A DNA stretch of 40,156 nt, from sequence record ON528733. One strand, 5' to 3'. Positions within the stretch are counted from its first letter, which is position 1, and each line of letters starts with the position of its first letter. Made by a program: the position numbers and the translations under genes. Of this stretch, positions 13,680 through 29,743 are shown one piece after another. The DNA comes from Shigella phage ESh23. Under the pieces are notes generated by a model. That model was given only the letters and a program-made list of their open reading frames with translations. It searched no databases and was not told the DNA's origin.

Positions 13680-14186
13680 ATGGAACGTAACACTAACGCA
13701 TACTATGACCTGCTGGCTGCAACCGTTGAGCTGTTCAACGAGCGTATTCAGCAAGACGAAATAGCTGAAGGTGATGACTACAGCGATGCGCTGCATGAAG
13801 TCGTAGACGGTCAGGTTCCGCACTATTACAGCGAGATTTTCACGGTGATGGCTGCTGATGGTATTGACCACGAGTTCGAAGACTCTGGGCTGATGCCTGA
13901 TACCAAGGACGTAACGCGTATACTGCAAGCTCGCATCTATGAGGCACTGTATAACGATGTGTACAATAGCTCGGATGTAGTCTGGTTCGAGGCTGAAGAG
14001 AGCGACGAGGAGGACGAATACTGGGTGGTTGACGCTAAGACAGGTGCATTCATTGAGCAAGCTGTATCACTTGAGGTCGCTACTGCATGTGCCAAGGACC
14101 ACTATGCGATAGGTCGCCGCCTGAAAGTCGAAGACATCAACGACAACGTAGTGTTCGACCCTGCGGCTGCTGAGGACTGCGAGTGA
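13680..14186 (+). CDS. ocr: Ocr (T7 gp0.3-like anti-restriction DNA mimic) with ~50 aa C-terminal extension, 168 aa
   Basis: Core VPHYYSEIFTVMAADGIDHEFEDSGLMPDTKDVTRILQARIYE is near-identical to recalled T7 Ocr; acidic; first gene after the early promoters. Confidence 0.9.
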   Translation: MERNTNAYYDLLAATVELFNERIQQDEIAEGDDYSDALHEVVDGQVPHYYSEIFTVMAADGIDHEFEDSGLMPDTKDVTRILQARIYEALYNDVYNSSDVVWFEAEESDEEDEYWVVDAKTGAFIEQAVSLEVATACAKDHYAIGRRLKVEDINDNVVFDPAAAEDCE

Positions 14187-14534: not shown

Positions 14535-14882
14535 ATGACTGCTAAAACTCGCAATGTATTCTCGTTAGCATTTAAACTCAACGTTGTTGAATACTACACC
14601 TCTCTACCTGAGGGCGTTATGGATAGGGTGACGGAAACAGCCCAAAAGTTCGGGGTGGGGACGAGCTCGGTGAAGCGCTGGTTTACTCAGTATAGCCGTG
14701 GTGAGCTTGCCATGGAAAACGCTATTGCGGTAAGTCGCAGTCCATCTAAGGTAATAACAGGGGACACATACCACCTTGCTGGTAAGGACTTTAAGTCCAA
14801 AGAAGAGGCGATACGCTATGCAGTCGAGCTGGCTGGGGGTCTTACTGTAACCAAGATGACAACCATCTCGGTGGAGGTGTAG
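14535..14882 (+). CDS. small HTH DNA-binding protein with a transposase (IS3 OrfA-type) helix-turn-helix signature, 115 aa
   Basis: FSLAFKLNVVEYY...AQKFGVGTSSVKRWFTQY fits the FxxEFKxxxV...GVSxxxLxxWxKxY pattern of IS3-family HTH domains; good RBS AAGGAAAG. Confidence 0.75.
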   Translation: MTAKTRNVFSLAFKLNVVEYYTSLPEGVMDRVTETAQKFGVGTSSVKRWFTQYSRGELAMENAIAVSRSPSKVITGDTYHLAGKDFKSKEEAIRYAVELAGGLTVTKMTTISVEV

Positions 14883-14904
14883 GAACAAGCGATGTAGGTG
14901 AGTG

Positions 14905-14950
14905 CCAGACTACAGGTCATCCATGCTGGTGGCCTGACTGATTGTCACTT
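14905..14950 (+). promoter_or_regulatory. second copy of the conserved early-region element, upstream of the kinase gene
   Basis: Matches 14465..14510 copy. Confidence 0.3.
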
Positions 14951-14974
14951 AACCACAAGAAGGAAACACACGTA

Positions 14975-15709
14975 ATGAACGCACACGATAAAGTAATCAT
15001 GAATAACCTGATGTATCAGCTCCACGCTATCATCTGCGAGGAGTGCTATAAGATTGAGGACTCTAGCGCTGGCATAGCTGGTCAACCTCGCTGGGGAGCC
15101 TTTGAGATACTGGCGCGGGAACATGGTTACAAGCTGTTAGGCCTTGGACATTTCGCCGCTGCCTTTGAGCATGAGGACCTGCCGGGATATGCAATCAAGG
15201 TAGGCTTTAAGAAGGATGACTCAGGCGCTGCATATGCGGCCTTCTGCCGAGAGAACGAGGGTCTGGCTGGGCTTCCGGTCATCCATCTGGTCAAGCGCTT
15301 TAGCAGGGCATACATGGTCGCTATGGATAAGTACCGCTCACTGAATGACATTGGCGGTGACTACTGCCGGGATGGTGAGACCTACGAGCAGCGAGTCTTA
15401 AACGTGTCGTGGCGTGTAGTCAACGCGATAATAGACCATTGCGAGCAACCGTCTGAGGCCCTGAGCTGGTGGCTGGACCAAGACGCACGGGCTGAGTTTG
15501 GACACGTCGAGGCCCAGTATATCAAGGACCTTGCGCAGACCGCTAAGAAGATTAACAGTTTCTTCTACGGGCTGGCATCATTCGACACACACCGCGCTAA
15601 TGTGATGGTTGATAACAATGGGCGACTGATAATCACAGACCCAGTGTCTTGGACTCAGGCAGACCATCAAGACGAGCTGCAAGGCAGGCTGAACGCAATA
15701 GCTGAGTGA
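14975..15709 (+). CDS. serine/threonine protein kinase (T7 gp0.7-like kinase domain only), 244 aa
   Basis: Motifs LGxGHFxAA, IKVGFKKDDSGAAYAAFCR, FFYGLASFDTHRANVM, ITDPVS match recalled T7 gp0.7; ATG 14975 with RBS preferred over TTG 14942. Confidence 0.85.
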   Translation: MNAHDKVIMNNLMYQLHAIICEECYKIEDSSAGIAGQPRWGAFEILAREHGYKLLGLGHFAAAFEHEDLPGYAIKVGFKKDDSGAAYAAFCRENEGLAGLPVIHLVKRFSRAYMVAMDKYRSLNDIGGDYCRDGETYEQRVLNVSWRVVNAIIDHCEQPSEALSWWLDQDARAEFGHVEAQYIKDLAQTAKKINSFFYGLASFDTHRANVMVDNNGRLIITDPVSWTQADHQDELQGRLNAIAE

Positions 15710-15716
15710 TAGACGA

Positions 15717-15754
15717 GAGGCCACTACATCTAGTGGTCTCAAAGATTATTTCTC
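15717..15754 (+). terminator. stem-loop (10 bp stem GAGGCCACTA/TAGTGGTCTC, loop CATC) followed by AAAGATTATTTCTC; possible weak terminator or processing site
   Basis: Read directly; U-tract is not contiguous with the stem. Confidence 0.3.
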
Positions 15755-15774
15755 ACAACATATAGAGGTGAACT

Positions 15775-15864
15775 ATGAACATCGGGTACTGGGTGTGCTT
15801 ATCTCCGGTCATCTTTCTGATAGCTTGGGGTCTTCTGGATGCAATCAAGCGAGGGTCTCTGTAA
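15775..15864 (+). CDS. 29-aa hydrophobic peptide (MNIGYWVCLSPVIFLIAWGLLDAIKRGSL)
   Basis: GAGGTG SD 7 nt upstream; stop overlaps next start (TAATG). Confidence 0.35.
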   Translation: MNIGYWVCLSPVIFLIAWGLLDAIKRGSL

Positions 15865-16058
15865 TGGGCTGGATACTTCTGGTCATCGGCTACGGGCTAA
15901 TACTCGCAGTCATCACGAAAGACATCATCAAGGCACGTAAAGTCTACCGCTTCCAGTATGTATCACTGGGGCGCTGGACTGTAAGACAACCGAACGGACG
16001 CTTTCTGCGCAACCTCGCAAACGTCTGGGATATAGCAACCTTAGGGAGTAAACTGTAA
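15864..16058 (+). CDS. small membrane protein, 65 aa (N-terminal TM helix, basic C-terminus)
   Basis: ATG-initiated version of track ORF 15768..16058; translationally coupled on both sides. Confidence 0.5.
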   Translation: MGWILLVIGYGLILAVITKDIIKARKVYRFQYVSLGRWTVRQPNGRFLRNLANVWDIATLGSKL

Positions 16059-16384
16059 TGAATAAGTCATACGGGATTAATCTGGTTCATGCTCTGGACG
16101 CAGACCTTAACCTGCTTTCAGCACTGGCTACAGGATACCGTCACAGGACCTCAAGTCACACCATTCGTCAACAGCAGGAGCGCGACCGGGTGCTGCAAGC
16201 AAGACTCCGGGCCGAGGGCCATAAGTCCGAGCTGATGTGTCTGGCGTATGGTGGACGACCTCGCACGGACGATGGTAAACTTCTGGTCTCAGGCTGGATG
16301 GCGATAGACCAGCGGTCAGGCATCAAGCATACATCCAAAGGCGACTTCAGCCATCTCCACGCTAACACACTGATATGCAAGTAG
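16058..16384 (+). CDS. hypothetical early protein, 108 aa
   Basis: ORF coupled to the upstream ORF (TAATGA); no motif recognised. Confidence 0.55.
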   Translation: MNKSYGINLVHALDADLNLLSALATGYRHRTSSHTIRQQQERDRVLQARLRAEGHKSELMCLAYGGRPRTDDGKLLVSGWMAIDQRSGIKHTSKGDFSHLHANTLICK

Positions 16385-16391
16385 TTTGGAC

Positions 16392-16410
16392 TAAACTATC
16401 ACTAAAGGAC
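16392..16410 (+). promoter_or_regulatory. variant phage-type promoter upstream of the RNAP gene: TAAACTATCACTAAAGGAC
   Basis: Matches the consensus except A for T at -2 (T3-like CACTAAAGG). Confidence 0.45.
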
Positions 16411-16487
16411 TCAAGGTCGAAAGACTCTAAGTCAGGACTGAAGTGAAAGACTTTAGTGATAAGACAACAGTTATAAGGACTTTAAGT

Positions 16488-19169
16488 ATGAGCGTCATCT
16501 CAATTGACAAACACGACTTCTCTGATGTGTCGAATGCAATCGAACCTTTCAACGTACTGGCGGACCACTACGGGCAAGACCTCGCAGTCAAACAGCTCCA
16601 GCTAGAGCATGAGGCATACACTGAAGGTGAGCGACGTTTCATTAAGAACCTTGAGCGTCAGACTGAGCGCGGGGAACTGGCAGACAATCAGGTTGCTAAG
16701 CCACTGATGCAAACGCTGGTCCCAACCATCGCTAAGGCTGTGCGTGAGTGGCATGAAGGCCCGGACGGTAAGTCCTCGACCTCTCGCCCAAGCGTAGCGT
16801 TTACCATGCTGAGCACTGACGAGAAGGCTGTCAAAGACCGCTCTCTGCGCATCTCTCCAGAGTCCGCTGCGGTCATCATACTGAAGGTCATTCTCAGCAA
16901 GCTGGTCAAGCCTGAGGGCATCCCGATAACTCCTATGGCGTCCGCGATAGGTCGCACACTGGAAGATGAAATCCGCTTTGGTCGAATCCGTGAGCAGGAG
17001 CAGGAGCATTTCAAGAAGACCATAGCGGAGAACCTGAAGAAACGCGCTGGCGCAAGCTACAAGAAGGCCTACATGCAGGCAGTCGAGGCGTCTATGCTTG
17101 AGCAGGGACAACTGGCTGACGCGTGGGGGACTTGGAGTCCGACCGAGGCAGTTCATGTAGGCATAAAGATGCTAGAGCTGGTCATCCAGTCATCGCAACT
17201 GGTCGAGCTGAAGCGCTACGGTGCAGGCAATGCTGCGGTAGACGTCGAGATGGTTCACCTGTCTGACTTCTGGGTCAAGAAGATGGCTCAGCGTGGCTTC
17301 TCTCTGGCTGGAATTTCCCCAGTTTACCAGCCCTGCGTCGTGCCACCTAAGCCGTGGACCGGGGTGGTTGGCGGTGGGTACTGGGCTAAGGGTCGCAGGC
17401 CACTCCCTCTGATTCGCTTAGGGTCTAAGGCTGCGGTCCAGCGCTACGAAGACGTGTACATGCCTGAAGTGTATGAGGCAGTGAACATCATTCAGCAGAC
17501 TCCTTGGAAGGTAAACAAGAAGGTGCTGGAAGTGGTGAACATGGTCGAGAAGCTGAATAACACGCCTATCGCTGACATCCCTCAGATGGAGCCGCTGAAG
17601 CCTGAAGACTATGCGGGTGAGACCGAGGAGGAGCTTAAGGCTTGGAAGAAATCTGCGGCTGGCATCTATCGACGCGAGAAGGCCCGACAGTCTCGCCGTT
17701 TATCGCTGAGCTTCATCGTCTCACAGGCTAACAAGTTCTCTCAGTTCAAGGCCATATGGTTCCCGTACAACATGGACTGGCGAGGTCGTGTTTACGCAGT
17801 CCCGATGTTCAACCCTCAGGGCAACGATATGCAGAAGGGCCTGCTGACTCTGGCGGTAGGCAAGCCAATCGGTGCGGACGGCTTCAAATGGCTGAAGGTA
17901 CACGGTGCAAACTGCGCGGGTGTAGATAAAGTCACCTTTGAGGAGCGCATCAAGTGGGTTGAGGACAACCACGACAACATCCTAGCGACTGCTAAGAGTC
18001 CGATGGATAGCATTGACTGGTGGGGCCAGTTAGACTCTCCGTTCTGCTTCCTCGCGTTCTGCTTTGAGTATGCCGGGGTTATGCACCACGGGCTGAGCTA
18101 CTCCTGCTCTCTGCCTATCGCGTTCGATGGGTCCTGCTCTGGGATTCAGCACTTCAGCGCTATGCTCCGTGACCACGTTGGTGGACATGCGGTAAACCTG
18201 ACGCCTTCCGGTAAGGTCCAAGACATCTACCGCATTGTGTCCGACCGGGTGGAAGAACAGCTCAAGGAGCTGCTGGTCAACGGCAGTGACAACGAGGTGA
18301 AGACCTTCGAGGACAAGAAGACAGGCGAGATTACTGAACGTCTGGTCCTTGGGACCCGTGAGCTGGCCCGACAGTGGCTGACCTACGGGATGTCACGCTC
18401 GGTCACTAAACGCTCGGTAATGACTCTGGCCTATGGGTCGAAGGAATACGGGTTCGCGGACCAAGTGTTTGAGGATACCGTGATGCCAGCGATTGATAGT
18501 GGCAAGGGAGCAATGTTCACGGACCCAAGCCAAGCGTCTCGCTTCATGGCTAAGATGATATGGGACGCTGTGAGTGTGACCGTAGTGGCTGCGGTGGATG
18601 CAATGAAGTGGCTTCAGGGTGCGGCTAAACTGCTGGCTGCCGAGGTCAAGGACAAGAAGACCAAAGAGGTCCTTAAGCCTTGCCTTCCGGTTCACTGGGT
18701 AACACCTGATGGCTTCCCGGTATGGCAGGAATACCGCAAGAAAGACACAACGCGCCTGAATCTACTGTTCCTTGGGTCGTTCAACCTGCAACCGACAGTC
18801 AATAAGGGGTCGAAGAAAGAGCTGGACAAGCACAAGCAGGAGTCCGGTATCAGCCCTAACTTTGTACACTCACAGGATGGCAGTCACCTGAGGAAGACTG
18901 TGGTCCACACCCACCGCAAGTATGGCGTGATGTCCTTCGCGGTGATTCACGACAGCTTTGGGACCATACCAGCAGACGCTGAGTTCCTGTTCAAGGGAGT
19001 CCGTGAGACGATGGTCGAGACCTACCGCGACAACGATGTGCTGCAAGACTTCTACGAGCAGTTCGCGGACCAGCTTCACGAGAGCCAGCGCGACAAGTTG
19101 CCTGAGCTGCCTAAGCGCGGTAAACTGAACATCGAAGACATTCTGTTATCTGACTTTGCATTCGCCTGA
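16488..19169 (+). CDS. single-subunit DNA-directed RNA polymerase (T7 gp1-like), 893 aa
   Basis: Collinear with recalled T7 RNAP from N-terminus (DFSDxxxAxxPFNxLADHYG) to C-terminus (LHESQxDKxPxLPxxGxLNxxDILxSDFAFA); ATG 16488 preferred over GTG 16443. Confidence 0.97.
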   Translation: MSVISIDKHDFSDVSNAIEPFNVLADHYGQDLAVKQLQLEHEAYTEGERRFIKNLERQTERGELADNQVAKPLMQTLVPTIAKAVREWHEGPDGKSSTSRPSVAFTMLSTDEKAVKDRSLRISPESAAVIILKVILSKLVKPEGIPITPMASAIGRTLEDEIRFGRIREQEQEHFKKTIAENLKKRAGASYKKAYMQAVEASMLEQGQLADAWGTWSPTEAVHVGIKMLELVIQSSQLVELKRYGAGNAAVDVEMVHLSDFWVKKMAQRGFSLAGISPVYQPCVVPPKPWTGVVGGGYWAKGRRPLPLIRLGSKAAVQRYEDVYMPEVYEAVNIIQQTPWKVNKKVLEVVNMVEKLNNTPIADIPQMEPLKPEDYAGETEEELKAWKKSAAGIYRREKARQSRRLSLSFIVSQANKFSQFKAIWFPYNMDWRGRVYAVPMFNPQGNDMQKGLLTLAVGKPIGADGFKWLKVHGANCAGVDKVTFEERIKWVEDNHDNILATAKSPMDSIDWWGQLDSPFCFLAFCFEYAGVMHHGLSYSCSLPIAFDGSCSGIQHFSAMLRDHVGGHAVNLTPSGKVQDIYRIVSDRVEEQLKELLVNGSDNEVKTFEDKKTGEITERLVLGTRELARQWLTYGMSRSVTKRSVMTLAYGSKEYGFADQVFEDTVMPAIDSGKGAMFTDPSQASRFMAKMIWDAVSVTVVAAVDAMKWLQGAAKLLAAEVKDKKTKEVLKPCLPVHWVTPDGFPVWQEYRKKDTTRLNLLFLGSFNLQPTVNKGSKKELDKHKQESGISPNFVHSQDGSHLRKTVVHTHRKYGVMSFAVIHDSFGTIPADAEFLFKGVRETMVETYRDNDVLQDFYEQFADQLHESQRDKLPELPKRGKLNIEDILLSDFAFA

Positions 19170-22287: not shown

Positions 22288-22369
22288 ATGGTGCGAGATG
22301 ATGTTCGAGAGGACAGGTAACACTGACTACCTCGAAATGTATAACATCTGGAAAGGGAGAGGGCTATGA
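22274..22369 (+). CDS. small ORF, 31 aa (T7 gene 1.8 position)
   Basis: Fills the gap between flanking genes; overlapping start/stop with neighbours. Confidence 0.3.
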
Positions 22370-22530
22370 GTCAGGACGAGAAGAAGTACATCGTGGAGCT
22401 TGAGGGTCGCGTTCAGTCCTTTGAGGTCCCGGTATACGCCAAGTCTCTGGACGAGGCGACCCTAAAGTCTCAGGAGTACGAAGATGCTGGTTTCGTGGTA
22501 GGCCGCATCCGACCTGAGCTGCACGACTAA
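22366..22530 (+). CDS. inhibitor of host RNA polymerase (T7 gp2-like), 54 aa
   Basis: [14 protein letters not shown] matches recalled T7 gp2 (SFEVPIYAETLDEA). Confidence 0.75.
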
Positions 22531-29253: not shown

Positions 29254-29537
29254 TGGCTATTACTAAACGTATTCGTGTGAGTTTTGACCTGAGGATGGTT
29301 GTTAGCTCAAAGGAAGAAGAGACCATGTGTTGTCAGCTCGCTGAGATGACTAAAGCCTACGCCGAGGGTGAGAAGCTGGATGGACTTCAGTTGGCTCTGG
29401 TCAAAACAGCAATCGAGTCAGGTCCTGAGTCTGCCCTTGAAATTGCCATCAAGAAGACCATCAAGGAGGAGCTGGTAGACGCCTTTGGTGATGACCAGTT
29501 CGGAGTATCCAACCTGCGATTCGAGGTCAAGCAATGA
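29253..29537 (+). CDS. hypothetical protein, 94 aa, possibly T7 gp5.5-like
   Basis: ATG overlaps gp5 stop; AAGGAG SD; N-terminus MAITKRIRVSFD resembles my recollection of gp5.5; uncertain. Confidence 0.55.
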   Translation: MAITKRIRVSFDLRMVVSSKEEETMCCQLAEMTKAYAEGEKLDGLQLALVKTAIESGPESALEIAIKKTIKEELVDAFGDDQFGVSNLRFEVKQ

Positions 29538-29743
29538 GTGAATACTTACGGGTCCTAGCGGCCCTTAAGTCCTGCCCGAAGACCTTCCAGTCAAACTACG
29601 TGCGCAACAATGCGGCACTGGTGGCTGAGGCTGCGAGTCGTGGACATCTAAGCTGCCTGTCTATGGACGGGCGTAACAACGGTGCGTGGGAGATTACCGC
29701 TGCTGGCACCAAGTTCCTGAACCAACACGGAGGCTGTCTATGA
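29534..29743 (+). CDS. T7 gp5.7-like protein (inhibitor of sigma-S RNAP in T7), 69 aa
   Basis: MSEYLRVLAALKSCPKTFQSNYVRNNAALVAEAASRGHLSCL...GAWEITAAGTKFL nearly collinear with recalled T7 gp5.7. Confidence 0.85.
   Translation: MSEYLRVLAALKSCPKTFQSNYVRNNAALVAEAASRGHLSCLSMDGRNNGAWEITAAGTKFLNQHGGCL

What the first reader, a model, noticed from the sequence alone, without database searches (positions are those of the whole stretch)
14975..15709. Early kinase lacks the C-terminal host-shutoff domain
The kinase motifs of T7 gp0.7 are present, but the protein ends at 244 aa (T7 gp0.7 is 359 aa). The C-terminal transcription-shutoff module appears to be absent, and the region downstream is instead occupied by three small coupled ORFs.
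Basis: partly seen in the sequence, partly recalled or inferred. Interest (0 to 1): 0.35.

Follow-up and report, generated by a model that had tools for sequence, protein, structure and literature searches.

The report
Kinase-only T7-type early phage kinase
This T7-like phage carries a complete, apparently active early protein kinase that naturally stops where T7's kinase domain ends and has no DNA-binding host-shutoff domain; this is the normal form of the gene in a whole group of related phages, not a broken or split gene.

Summary
ORF 14975..15709 encodes a 244-aa homologue of the T7 gp0.7 kinase (35% identity to T7 residues 55-219, E 3e-35). All catalytic landmarks are invariant. The protein ends at the aligned PK/SO domain boundary of T7 (residue 242), with tandem stops TGA-TAG. 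No trace of the shutoff (SO) domain exists in any frame of the 40-kb window. tblastn's best hit was E 0.65 and a 41-sequence SO HMM's best was E 2.8, while the same HMM hit T7 at 3e-37. It is not a frameshift, split or recent truncation. The stop and the C-terminal peptide are conserved in relatives down to 54% identity (Kayfunavirus, Caroctavirus CR8, metagenomic 40-kb phages). The family has its own 260-position PHROG. Codon-position variation shows purifying selection. The downstream ORFs are not a replacement for SO. ORF64 and ORF108 also occur in kinase-less K1F and ST15. ORF64-like genes lie upstream of long kinases in other genera. ORF108 has no profile similarity to SO. The 29-aa ORF is doubtful. 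Homologues of gp2 and gp5.7, T7's other host-RNAP inhibitors, are present. Verdict: real but ordinary, a member of a known kinase-only lineage. RefSeq's label 'inhibitor of host transcription' on these proteins is probably over-annotation.

The parts
14975..15709 (+). Kinase-only T7K (gp0.7) homologue, 244 aa. It is equivalent to the PK domain of T7 gp0.7 (residues 1-242).
   Evidence: PHROG 15752 E 2e-113, full length. 35% identity to T7 gp0.7 residues 55-219. Precomputed Pfam PF27024 Phage_T7_kinase on homologues. Invariant catalytic residues. AF2 pLDDT 88.7 and pTM 0.86, kinase-like fold. Variable sites by codon position 58/38/167.
15707..15712 (+). Tandem in-frame stop codons TGA TAG that end the kinase at the aligned PK/SO boundary.
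   Evidence: Read directly from the sequence. The stop position and the C-terminal peptide ...LQGRLNAIAE are conserved in 11 relatives. The end aligns with T7 residues about 232-242.
15717..15740 (+). Stable 10-bp hairpin just after the kinase stop, with no U-run. Possibly an mRNA processing or stabilising element (inferred).
   Evidence: strand folding gives MFE -19.8 kcal/mol, z -3.63, and 0 of 200 shuffles fold as well. The scan found no terminator-like site here.
15775..15864 (+). 29-aa hydrophobic ORF, the first of the 'three coupled ORFs'. Its status as a gene is doubtful. It sits in a variable slot.
   Evidence: GAGGTG precedes the ATG, and its stop overlaps the next ATG. Variable sites by codon position are 21/22/29 of 29, which shows no coding signal. 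Relatives carry unrelated small ORFs here: 34, 53 or 104 aa.
15864..16058 (+). ORF64: a conserved small basic protein with one N-terminal hydrophobic helix (PHROG 2385). It is called '0.6' in K1F and EcoDS1 and '0.71' in CR8. Function unknown.
   Evidence: PHROG 2385 E 6.9e-27. 300 phage records hold a homologue. 73-84% identity where the kinase is only 54-56% identical. Variable sites 23/12/48. pI 11.0. A transmembrane helix is annotated in CR8.
16058..16384 (+). ORF108: a conserved basic protein (PHROG 7066; '0.38' in CR8). Function unknown. It is not related to the SO domain.
   Evidence: PHROG 7066 E 5.7e-42. 142 homologue clusters, none with a Pfam domain. Conserved 84-aa core. hhalign against SO gives probability below 1%. 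Present in kinase-less K1F and ST15. The AF2 model is poor, pLDDT 53.
16394..16409 (+). Phage-RNAP promoter between ORF108 and gene 1. It is the first phage promoter downstream of the early region, which places the kinase and the small ORFs in the host-RNAP-transcribed class I region.
   Evidence: AACTATCACTAAAGGA has 11 matches, all on the + strand, against 0.24 expected. None lies between 12208 and 16394. CR8 has an annotated promoter at the same place.
16490..19169 (+). Gene 1, the phage RNA polymerase. It is not adjacent to the kinase here; the gap is 780 nt.
   Evidence: 62% identity to T7 gp1 over residues 1-883. ORF listed.
22363..22515 (+). gp2 homologue (host RNA polymerase inhibitor). 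Context: a host-shutoff function that does not depend on SO.
   Evidence: tblastn with T7 gp2: 48% identity, E 3.7e-12.
29534..29740 (+). gp5.7 homologue (second host RNAP inhibitor). Context.
   Evidence: tblastn with T7 gp5.7: 77% identity, E 2.5e-36.

Best explanation
Gene 14975..15709 is an intact, complete, kinase-only member of the T7 gp0.7 (T7K) kinase family. It is the standard form of the gene in a monophyletic lineage of Studiervirinae: part of Kayfunavirus, Caroctavirus CR8 and related metagenomic phages. It lies in the early region, upstream of the first phage promoter, so it should be transcribed by host RNA polymerase (inferred from position). It most likely acts as a promiscuous Ser/Thr/Tyr kinase of host and phage proteins and switches itself off through the conserved Ser225, the equivalent of T7 Ser216 (inferred from conserved residues). 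Because it has no basic DNA-binding SO domain, it should behave like the engineered T7 delta-SO (1-242) enzyme. That means no kinase-independent transcription shutoff or toxicity, no DNA tethering, and hence less phosphorylation overall and less bias towards nucleic-acid-binding proteins (inferred from published T7 and JSS1 work). Host RNAP shutoff in this phage would rest on its gp2 and gp5.7 homologues. The ORFs downstream are independent backbone genes, not a detached or replacement SO module.
For: Shown here:
- Family membership and full-length match to PHROG 15752, and 35% identity to T7 gp0.7.
- All homologues of at least 54% identity are 229-244 aa, while more distant ones are mostly 365-392 aa and carry SO.
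- The stop and the C-terminal peptide are conserved in 11 relatives, with a third-position excess of variation of 58/38/167.
- The same kinase -> ORF64 -> ~99-aa ORF108 homologue -> RNAP order is found in 40-kb contigs whose kinases are 54-56% identical and in CR8.
- No SO signal appears in any frame of the window or of 15 related loci, with a T7 positive control at 3e-37.
- The protein ends at the aligned T7 PK/SO boundary. The published boundary is 242/243 (PMC13645617).
- G58, K75, D204, H206, N209, the D222-P-V motif and S225 are invariant.
- The AF2 model is confident and self-contained (pLDDT 88.7). It matches protein-kinase-like folds in the PDB and phage kinases in BFVD, including the 236-aa IME278 kinase at TM 0.92.
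- The protein is acidic like the T7 PK domain: pI 5.35 against 4.63, compared with 11.3 for SO.
- gp2 and gp5.7 homologues are present.
- The short clade is monophyletic in 199 of 200 bootstraps.

From the literature: T7 delta-SO keeps about 31% of the phosphopeptides and loses the bias towards nucleic-acid-binding proteins, and SO binds DNA (PMC13645617). Both domains of JSS1_004 are needed against Dnd (PMC12345140).
Against: Kinase activity, promiscuity and self-inactivation are inferred from conserved residues only. Nothing was measured for this lineage. The short clade has insertions relative to T7 (about residues 120-135 and 160-180) and lacks T7's N-terminal ~20-30 residues, so substrate range could differ. 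The last helix (233-243) is modelled with low confidence, pLDDT about 60. A functional, non-homologous substitute for SO elsewhere in the genome cannot be excluded by sequence methods.
Confidence: 0.9

Rival explanations
1. The gene is a frameshifted, split or mis-assembled full-length gp0.7, and the SO part is encoded in another frame or in ORF 16058..16384.
For: Only the length difference (244 against 359 aa) and the presence of ORFs where T7 has none.
Against: There is no SO similarity in any of the six frames by tblastn (best E 0.65 in the window; E 1.9 and 33 within 15700-16400) or by HMM (best E 2.8), while the T7 control scores 3e-37. ORF108 against SO gives hhalign probability below 1%, and HMM searches in both directions give nothing. 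The stops are tandem. The same stop is found in independent genomes and assemblies down to 54% identity.
Confidence: 0.01
2. The kinase is a recent truncation (nonsense mutation or deletion) of a T7-type PK+SO gene and is on its way to pseudogenisation.
For: The kinase is dispensable in this group. K1F has none. Salmonella phage ST15 retains only the last ~38 codons, fused next to a truncated SAMase gene.
Against: The 244-aa frame is under purifying selection, with variable sites 58/38/167. Catalytic residues are invariant. The architecture is shared by a deep monophyletic clade with 54-99% identity. The protein is only 35% identical to T7 gp0.7. The gene sits upstream of ORF64, whereas long kinases sit downstream of the ORF64-like gene. 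An ancient loss of SO at the base of the clade is not excluded: in bootstraps the clade fell outside the SO-bearing taxa 81 times and nested among them 47 times out of 200.
Confidence: 0.05
3. The SO function (DNA binding, host transcription shutoff, targeting of the kinase) is supplied in trans by a separate small basic early protein, such as ORF108 (pI 9.8), ORF64 (pI 11.0) or the HTH protein at 14535..14882.
For: ORF108 is basic and helical and occupies, relative to ORF64 and gene 1, the position that the PK+SO kinase holds in Pektosvirus, Berlinvirus and Przondovirus. The HTH ORF lies immediately upstream of the kinase, with a weak Pfam BrkDBD/HTH match at E 7e-5.
Against: There is no detectable homology to SO. 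ORF64 and ORF108 are present in kinase-less K1F and ST15, so they are not coupled to the kinase. ORF64 also co-occurs with SO-bearing kinases. The HTH ORF is not linked to the kinase in relatives: LET1, CHRF_10037, EFA-1 and CR8 have 41-45-aa ORFs there instead. The ORF108 model is too poor to compare folds.
Confidence: 0.06
4. The protein is a catalytically dead pseudokinase kept for another role.
For: None specific. Activity was not measured.
Against: Every landmark tested is invariant: the Gly loop (G58 = T7 G76, whose G76F change kills T7K), K75, D204/H206/N209 and the DPV motif.
Confidence: 0.03

Closest known systems
T7 gp0.7 (T7K), PK domain residues 1-242, i.e. the engineered T7 delta-SO kinase (PMC13645617). 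From memory and unchecked here: the classical JS78 amber fragment.
   Same: Same kinase family: 35% identity with all catalytic landmarks conserved, including the DPV motif and the autoinhibitory Ser. It is an early gene upstream of gene 1, and the protein ends at the aligned domain boundary.
   Different: It is a natural form, not an engineered one. It lacks T7's first ~20-30 residues and has two insertions in the C-lobe. It is separated from gene 1 by ORF64 and ORF108 instead of abutting it.
PHROG 15752 proteins and annotated kinases of Shigella phage SFPH2, Cronobacter phages Dev2 and GW1, Escherichia phages IMM-002 and Pisces, and Citrobacter phage CR8 gp0.7
   Same: The same protein: 84-99% identity within Kayfunavirus and 55% to CR8. 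All are 242-244 aa, with the same downstream ORF64 and ORF108 and then gene 1.
   Different: Essentially nothing. The number of small ORFs between the kinase and gene 1 varies (gap of 686-1197 nt; some have an endonuclease VII gene inserted).
JSS1_004 (Salmonella phage JSS1) and other PK+SO kinases (PHROG 2828)
   Same: Homologous kinase domain (PHROG 2828, E 5.8e-53 over profile positions 46-225 of 366).
   Different: Those proteins carry the basic C-terminal SO domain, which is required together with the kinase for anti-Dnd activity (PMC12345140). The window protein has none.
Other kinase-only T7K-like proteins from phages and metagenomes
   Same: Kinase domain with at most 30 residues after it. 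This applies to 64 of the 150 best 50%-identity representatives. Short proteins in BFVD include Xylella phage Cota (199 aa), Ralstonia phage RSB1 (224 aa) and Erwinia phage L1 (231 aa).
   Different: They are much more distant (15-30% identity in structural alignments). Some short metagenomic entries may be fragments cut at contig ends.

Membership tests
T7K-like phage protein kinase (Pfam PF27024 Phage_T7_kinase; PHROG 15752 / 2828) | Significant, full-length match to the family profile | tested here: met
   PHROG 15752 E 2e-113 over 18-260 of 260, and PHROG 2828 E 5.8e-53. Homologues carry precomputed PF27024. The local Pfam copy lacks this model, so it gave no hit.
T7K-like phage protein kinase | Gly-rich loop with the Gly equivalent to T7 G76 (G76F is catalytically dead) | tested here: met
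   L55-G56-L-G58-H59-F60, with G56, G58 and F60 invariant in 31 sequences.
T7K-like phage protein kinase | Invariant Lys in the (V/A)IKVGFKK motif and a catalytic loop FD-x-H-x-x-N | tested here: met
   K75, D204, H206 and N209 are invariant. Their assignment as the ATP-binding Lys and the catalytic loop is by analogy with protein kinases (inference).
T7K-like phage protein kinase | DPV motif (T7 residues 213-215) followed by the autoinhibitory Ser (T7 S216) | tested here: met
   T221-D222-P223-V224-S225 is invariant. The motif is defined in PMC13645617.
T7K-like phage protein kinase | Protein-kinase-like bilobal fold | tested here: met
   AF2 pLDDT 88.7 and pTM 0.86. Foldseek hits to APH and Ser/Thr kinases, E 1e-5 to 1e-4 with probability 1.0 but low TM of 0.3-0.4. 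BFVD phage kinases match at TM 0.74-0.92.
T7K-like phage protein kinase | Class I (early) gene, upstream of gene 1 and of the first phage promoter | tested here: met
   The genome is colinear with T7. There is no phage promoter between 12208 and 16394.
T7K-like phage protein kinase | Ser/Thr/Tyr phosphotransfer activity and promiscuity | not testable with these tools
   This needs biochemistry or phosphoproteomics.
Full-length T7 gp0.7 architecture (PK + SO; host-transcription shutoff protein) | Basic C-terminal SO domain (T7 residues 243-359) | tested here: not met
   The protein ends at the boundary. No SO is found in any frame of the window. The 16-residue tail is acidic, pI 4.5.
Full-length T7 gp0.7 architecture (PK + SO) | The gene directly abuts gene 1 and lies downstream of the ORF64-like gene | tested here: not met
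   There are 780 nt and 2-3 ORFs between the kinase and gene 1, and the kinase lies upstream of ORF64. T7, PPWS4, PYPS50 and Kp1 have the kinase abutting gene 1.
Full-length T7 gp0.7 architecture (PK + SO) | Kinase-independent inhibition of host transcription | not testable with these tools
   Predicted absent because the responsible domain is absent. The RefSeq product name that claims it was transferred by homology.
Split or frameshifted gp0.7 | SO-homologous sequence in another frame or in a neighbouring ORF | tested here: not met

The most novel reading that the evidence does not exclude
The kinase-only gene may be the ancestral state in Studiervirinae, with the DNA-binding SO domain fused on later in the T7/T3/Berlin/Przondovirus lineage. 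Alternatively, this lineage may have lost SO and now gets DNA targeting or host shutoff from a non-homologous small basic early protein. The candidate is ORF108, which sits exactly where the PK+SO gene sits in other genera, between ORF64 and gene 1. Either way, these phages would be natural delta-SO experiments for separating the kinase's anti-defence role from SO's DNA-binding and shutoff role.
Probability: 0.1. Interest if true: 0.5.

Novelty: new member of a known kind. Interest (0 to 1): 0.2.

Why it matters
Work from 2025-2026 shows that the SO domain is not a passive appendage. It binds DNA and steers the hyper-promiscuous T7 kinase towards nucleic-acid-binding proteins. It also influences the timing of the kinase's self-inactivation, and in JSS1 it is required together with the kinase to defeat Dnd. 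A natural, conserved, SO-less kinase in otherwise T7-like phages is therefore a ready-made comparison for asking what the kinase does alone. It also helps explain why some phages keep it while close relatives such as K1F and ST15 have dropped the kinase entirely. There is a practical point too. RefSeq and PHROG product names call these proteins 'inhibitor of host transcription', and this is probably unjustified because the responsible domain is missing. In itself the finding is an ordinary difference in domain architecture, and it is already present in dozens of annotated genomes.

Tried and rejected
- Frameshifted or split gene: searched with tblastn (T7 full length and residues 230-359), a 41-sequence SO HMM on six-frame translations of the window and of 15 related loci, and hhalign. 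All were negative, with a working positive control.
- ORF108 as a detached SO: rejected on the profile comparisons and because ORF108 occurs in kinase-less phages.
- ORF108 structure: AF2 gave pLDDT 53, too poor for a fold search. A PDB profile search found nothing meaningful. There were no Pfam or NCBIfam hits.
- ORF29 as a remnant of the 53-55-aa membrane ORF that K1F, LET1 and L017 carry in that slot: no significant similarity.
- Direction of evolution (gain or loss of SO): the full-data NJ tree puts the short clade outside the SO-bearing group. Bootstraps do not resolve it: 81 outside, 47 nested and 72 unclassified of 200. SO-taxon monophyly got 3 of 200. No claim is made.
- Ser/Thr/Tyr depletion of early proteins as a signature of a promiscuous kinase: computed only for 12 early-region ORFs, with no middle or late genes for comparison, so it was not interpreted.
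- Solved structure of T7K: none in the PDB by sequence.
- Supplementary Table 8 of the Nature paper (list of homologues with and without SO) is not held. I could not check whether this clade is explicitly listed there.
- Literature searches for an explicit statement that Kayfunavirus kinases lack SO found none.

Full report
**What the window is.** The 40,156-bp window is a complete, circularly permuted T7-like genome (Autographiviridae, Studiervirinae) and is colinear with T7. tblastn with 52 T7 proteins finds, in T7 order, gp0.3 (Ocr), gp0.7, gp1, gp1.2, gp1.3, gp2, gp2.5, gp3, gp3.5, gp4, gp5, gp5.7, gp6 and gp8-gp19. The window starts inside gene 14. Over 14900-16450 the closest record is Shigella phage SFPH2, genus Kayfunavirus, at 97% DNA identity. 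157 phage records match at megablast level.

**Checking the observation.** ORF 14975..15709 (+) is 244 aa, with an AAGGA ribosome-binding site upstream. T7 gp0.7 is 359 aa.
- BLASTP aligns window residues 37-228 to T7 residues 55-219 at 35% identity, E 3e-35.
- The protein matches PHROG 15752 over positions 18-260 of a 260-position profile (E 2e-113). It matches only positions 46-225 of the 366-position T7-type PHROG 2828.
- In alignments of short and long homologues these residues are invariant: G56/G58/H59/F60, K75 in IKVGFKK, F203-D204-x-H206-x-x-N209 and T221-D222-P223-V224-S225.
- G58 corresponds to T7 G76, and G76F is the published catalytically dead mutant. D222-P-V is the published DPV motif (T7 213-215). 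S225 corresponds to the autoinhibitory T7 Ser216 (PMC13645617).
- The C-terminal helix ...ELQGRLNAIAE aligns with T7 ~232-242 (ELIKEVEEVA). The protein therefore stops at the PK(1-242)/SO(243-359) boundary used experimentally.
- The stop is a tandem TGA TAG at 15707-15712.

**Is the SO domain anywhere else?** It is not.
- tblastn of T7 residues 230-359 against the whole window gives a best E of 0.65, on the minus strand at about 35.5 kb. Within 15700-16400 there are only noise hits at E 1.9 and 33.
- I built an HMM from 41 SO domains: T7 plus 40 long homologues recovered. Against a six-frame translation of the window its best hit is E 2.8.
- The same HMM scores T7 at 3e-37 and finds nothing in 15 related loci.
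hhalign probability is 0.1-0.5%, and HMM-sequence searches in both directions give only noise.

The frameshift/split hypothesis is refuted.

**Is it a private truncation?** It is not.
- All 43 homologue clusters with at least 54% identity are 217-244 aa, apart from obvious fragments. The more distant homologues (at most 47% identity) are mostly 365-392 aa and carry SO.
- In 11 related genomes with 84-99% amino-acid identity the ORF runs 243-244 codons to a stop after ...L(N)AIAE. Variable sites by codon position are 58/38/167 of 244 each, which is the signature of purifying selection.
- Two 40-kb metagenomic T7-like contigs have kinases only 56% and 54% identical (235 and 229 aa). They show the same order: Ocr ... 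kinase -> small ORF -> 64-aa ORF -> 99-aa ORF -> RNA polymerase.
- Citrobacter phage CR8, a different genus (Caroctavirus), has a 242-aa '0.7' followed by 0.705, 0.71 (= ORF64), '0.38' (= ORF108 homologue, 43% identity) and gene 1.
- The short clade is monophyletic in 199 of 200 NJ bootstraps.

**How common is the architecture?**
- In the phage collection, 847 records encode a T7K-like kinase, and 46 of them match the window protein at 60% identity or more. The kinase-only Kayfunavirus type is thus a minority among isolates. This fits the published remark that Autographiviridae 'mostly retained' PK+SO.
- Across 1.84 billion representative proteins the kinase domain has 350 relatives at E of 1e-3 or better. 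Of the best 150, 64 have at most 30 residues after the kinase domain, 41 have a long tail with an SO hit, and 26 have a long tail without one. Some short ones may be contig-end fragments.
- BFVD holds other short phage kinases, including Xylella Cota (199 aa), Ralstonia RSB1 (224 aa), Erwinia L1 (231 aa) and IME278 (236 aa).

**Structure.** AF2 with a 31-sequence alignment gives pLDDT 88.7 and pTM 0.86, a self-contained two-lobed domain. Only the last helix (233-243) is uncertain. Foldseek finds aminoglycoside phosphotransferases and Ser/Thr kinases in the PDB (E about 1e-5, probability 1.0, TM only 0.3-0.4). It also finds phage T7-like kinases in BFVD at TM 0.74-0.92. No T7K structure is in the PDB by sequence.

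**The downstream ORFs.** The three ORFs exist with TAATG overlaps: 15775..15864, 15864..16058 and 16058..16384.
- *ORF64.* It belongs to PHROG 2385 (E 7e-27). It has one hydrophobic N-terminal helix and a pI of 11. It is very conserved, 73-84% identical even where the kinase is only 54-56% identical, and is present in 300 phage records.
- *ORF108.* It belongs to PHROG 7066 and has 142 homologue clusters, an invariant-rich 84-aa core, a pI of 9.8 and no Pfam domain. It is also real. Its structure prediction failed (pLDDT 53).
- *The 29-aa ORF.* It shows no codon-position signal. It lies in a slot where relatives carry unrelated small ORFs.
- *Independence from the kinase.* ORF64 and ORF108 do not depend on the kinase. 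K1F has no kinase at all but has ORF64 (its '0.6') and an unannotated ORF108-like sequence directly upstream of gene 1. Salmonella phage ST15 keeps both ORFs but retains only the last ~38 codons of the kinase.
- *Gene order in other genera.* In Pektosvirus PPWS4, Berlinvirus PYPS50 and Przondovirus Kp1, an ORF64-like gene (37-45% identity) lies upstream of a 337-382-aa PK+SO kinase that abuts gene 1.

So the short kinase occupies a different slot from the long kinases, upstream rather than downstream of ORF64. ORF108 occupies the slot of the long kinase but is not homologous to it. The small ORFs are backbone genes, not a replacement for SO.

**Regulatory context.** A phage promoter, AACTATCACTA(A/T)AGG(A/G), occurs 11 times, all on the + strand, against 0.24 expected. 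One copy is at 16394-16409, between ORF108 and gene 1, and none lies between 12208 and 16394. The kinase and the small ORFs are therefore class I genes, presumably transcribed by host RNAP. A stable hairpin without a U-run follows the kinase stop at 15717-15740 (z -3.6).

**How it most likely works.**
- *Shown:* an intact, selected, structurally complete kinase domain with all catalytic landmarks and the autoinhibitory Ser, and no SO domain in the genome.
- *Inferred from published T7 and JSS1 work:* the protein should phosphorylate host and phage proteins promiscuously early in infection and then switch itself off. It should lack DNA tethering, so phosphorylation should be lower and less focused on nucleic-acid-binding proteins; T7 delta-SO keeps about 31% of the phosphopeptides. 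It should also lack the toxic, kinase-independent transcription shutoff.
- *Host RNAP inhibition:* this would depend on the gp2 (22363-22515, 48% identity) and gp5.7 (29534-29740, 77% identity) homologues.
- *Annotation:* the RefSeq/PHROG product name 'inhibitor of host transcription' on these SO-less proteins is probably an over-transfer from T7.

**Gain or loss?** A midpoint-rooted NJ tree of 155 kinase domains puts the short clade just outside the group that contains all SO-bearing kinases, and the deeper branches are SO-less. That would favour 'never had SO'. Bootstrap support is weak: 81 replicates outside and 47 nested of 200, with 72 unclassified by my script, and strict SO-taxon monophyly in 3 of 200. 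I leave the question open.

**Novelty and verdict.** The window protein is 99% identical to annotated kinases (Cronobacter phage Dev2 gp0.5, and SFPH2). The kinase-only family has its own PHROG. I found no paper that states explicitly that Kayfunavirus or Caroctavirus kinases lack SO, and the relevant supplementary table is not available. The finding is correct and mildly useful as a natural delta-SO kinase and as an annotation caveat. It is an ordinary difference in domain architecture within a known family.

Noticed in passing
window 13680-14186: The Ocr (DNA-mimic anti-restriction) homologue is 168 aa, against 117 aa in T7. Pfam ocr covers residues 7-98, and an extra ~70-aa C-terminal part has no match. 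The closest relative at the kinase locus, SFPH2, has a SAM hydrolase gene at this position instead (so do Pisces and EFA-1). Anti-restriction genes are therefore swapped within otherwise near-identical early regions.
   Followed up: partly
window 14535-14882: A 115-aa basic ORF lies immediately upstream of the kinase. It has weak helix-turn-helix matches (Pfam BrkDBD E 7e-5, just under the cutoff, and transposase-type HTH). It is present in SFPH2 and is replaced by 41-45-aa ORFs in LET1, CHRF_10037, EFA-1 and CR8, so it is not linked to the kinase.
   Followed up: partly
L022 (Salmonella phage ST15, OQ860983.1) 1652-1923: A natural early-region deletion. A truncated SAM hydrolase ORF (165 nt) overlaps a 126-nt ORF that is the last ~38 codons of the kinase (87% identity to window residues 206-243). 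ORF64, ORF108 and gene 1 are intact. This shows that the kinase is dispensable and is being lost in this genus.
   Followed up: partly
L010 (phage K1F, NC_007456) 2202-2465: K1F has no kinase gene. It has an unannotated sequence 67% identical to ORF108 residues 21-108 between its gene '0.6' (= ORF64) and gene 1. By eye there seems to be an in-frame TAG near its start, so it may be a shorter version, a pseudogene or a missed gene.
   Followed up: no
NC_048025 (SFPH2), NC_048161 (GW1), NC_048071 (IMM-002); PHROG 15752: The product name 'protein kinase; inhibitor of host transcription; positively regulates RNaseIII; negatively on RNaseE' is attached to 244-aa proteins. These lack the domain that inhibits host transcription in T7, so this is a likely over-annotation by homology transfer.
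   Followed up: yes
window 6714, 12193, 16394, 19931, 21679, 22530, 27010, 31175, 33997, 34993, 39461 (+ strand): Eleven copies of a phage-RNAP promoter core, AACTATCACT(A/T/G)(A/T)AGG(A/G), against 0.24 expected by chance. The copy before gene 1 (16394) is the only one that reads CTAAAGGA, which resembles T3.
   Followed up: partly
hits H6, H12, H30 (Staphylococcus phage MBBL139, Enterococcus phages IME_EF3 and EFA-1): Records labelled as phages of Gram-positive hosts are 85-92% identical to this enterobacterial Kayfunavirus region. EFA-1 is already flagged UNVERIFIED_ORG. These are probably host mislabelling or contamination.
   Followed up: no
L014 (Salmonella phage CHRF_10037) 2567-2989; also IMM-002: An endonuclease VII gene is inserted between ORF64 and the ORF108 homologue in some relatives. 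The distance from kinase to gene 1 ranges from 686 to 1197 nt across relatives, so this interval is a hot spot for small-gene insertion.
   Followed up: partly
window 15717-15740: A perfect 10-bp hairpin with a 4-nt loop sits 8 nt after the kinase stop codons (z -3.6) and has no U-tract. It may be an RNase III or mRNA-stabilising element like those between T7 early genes. Its conservation in relatives was not examined.
   Followed up: no
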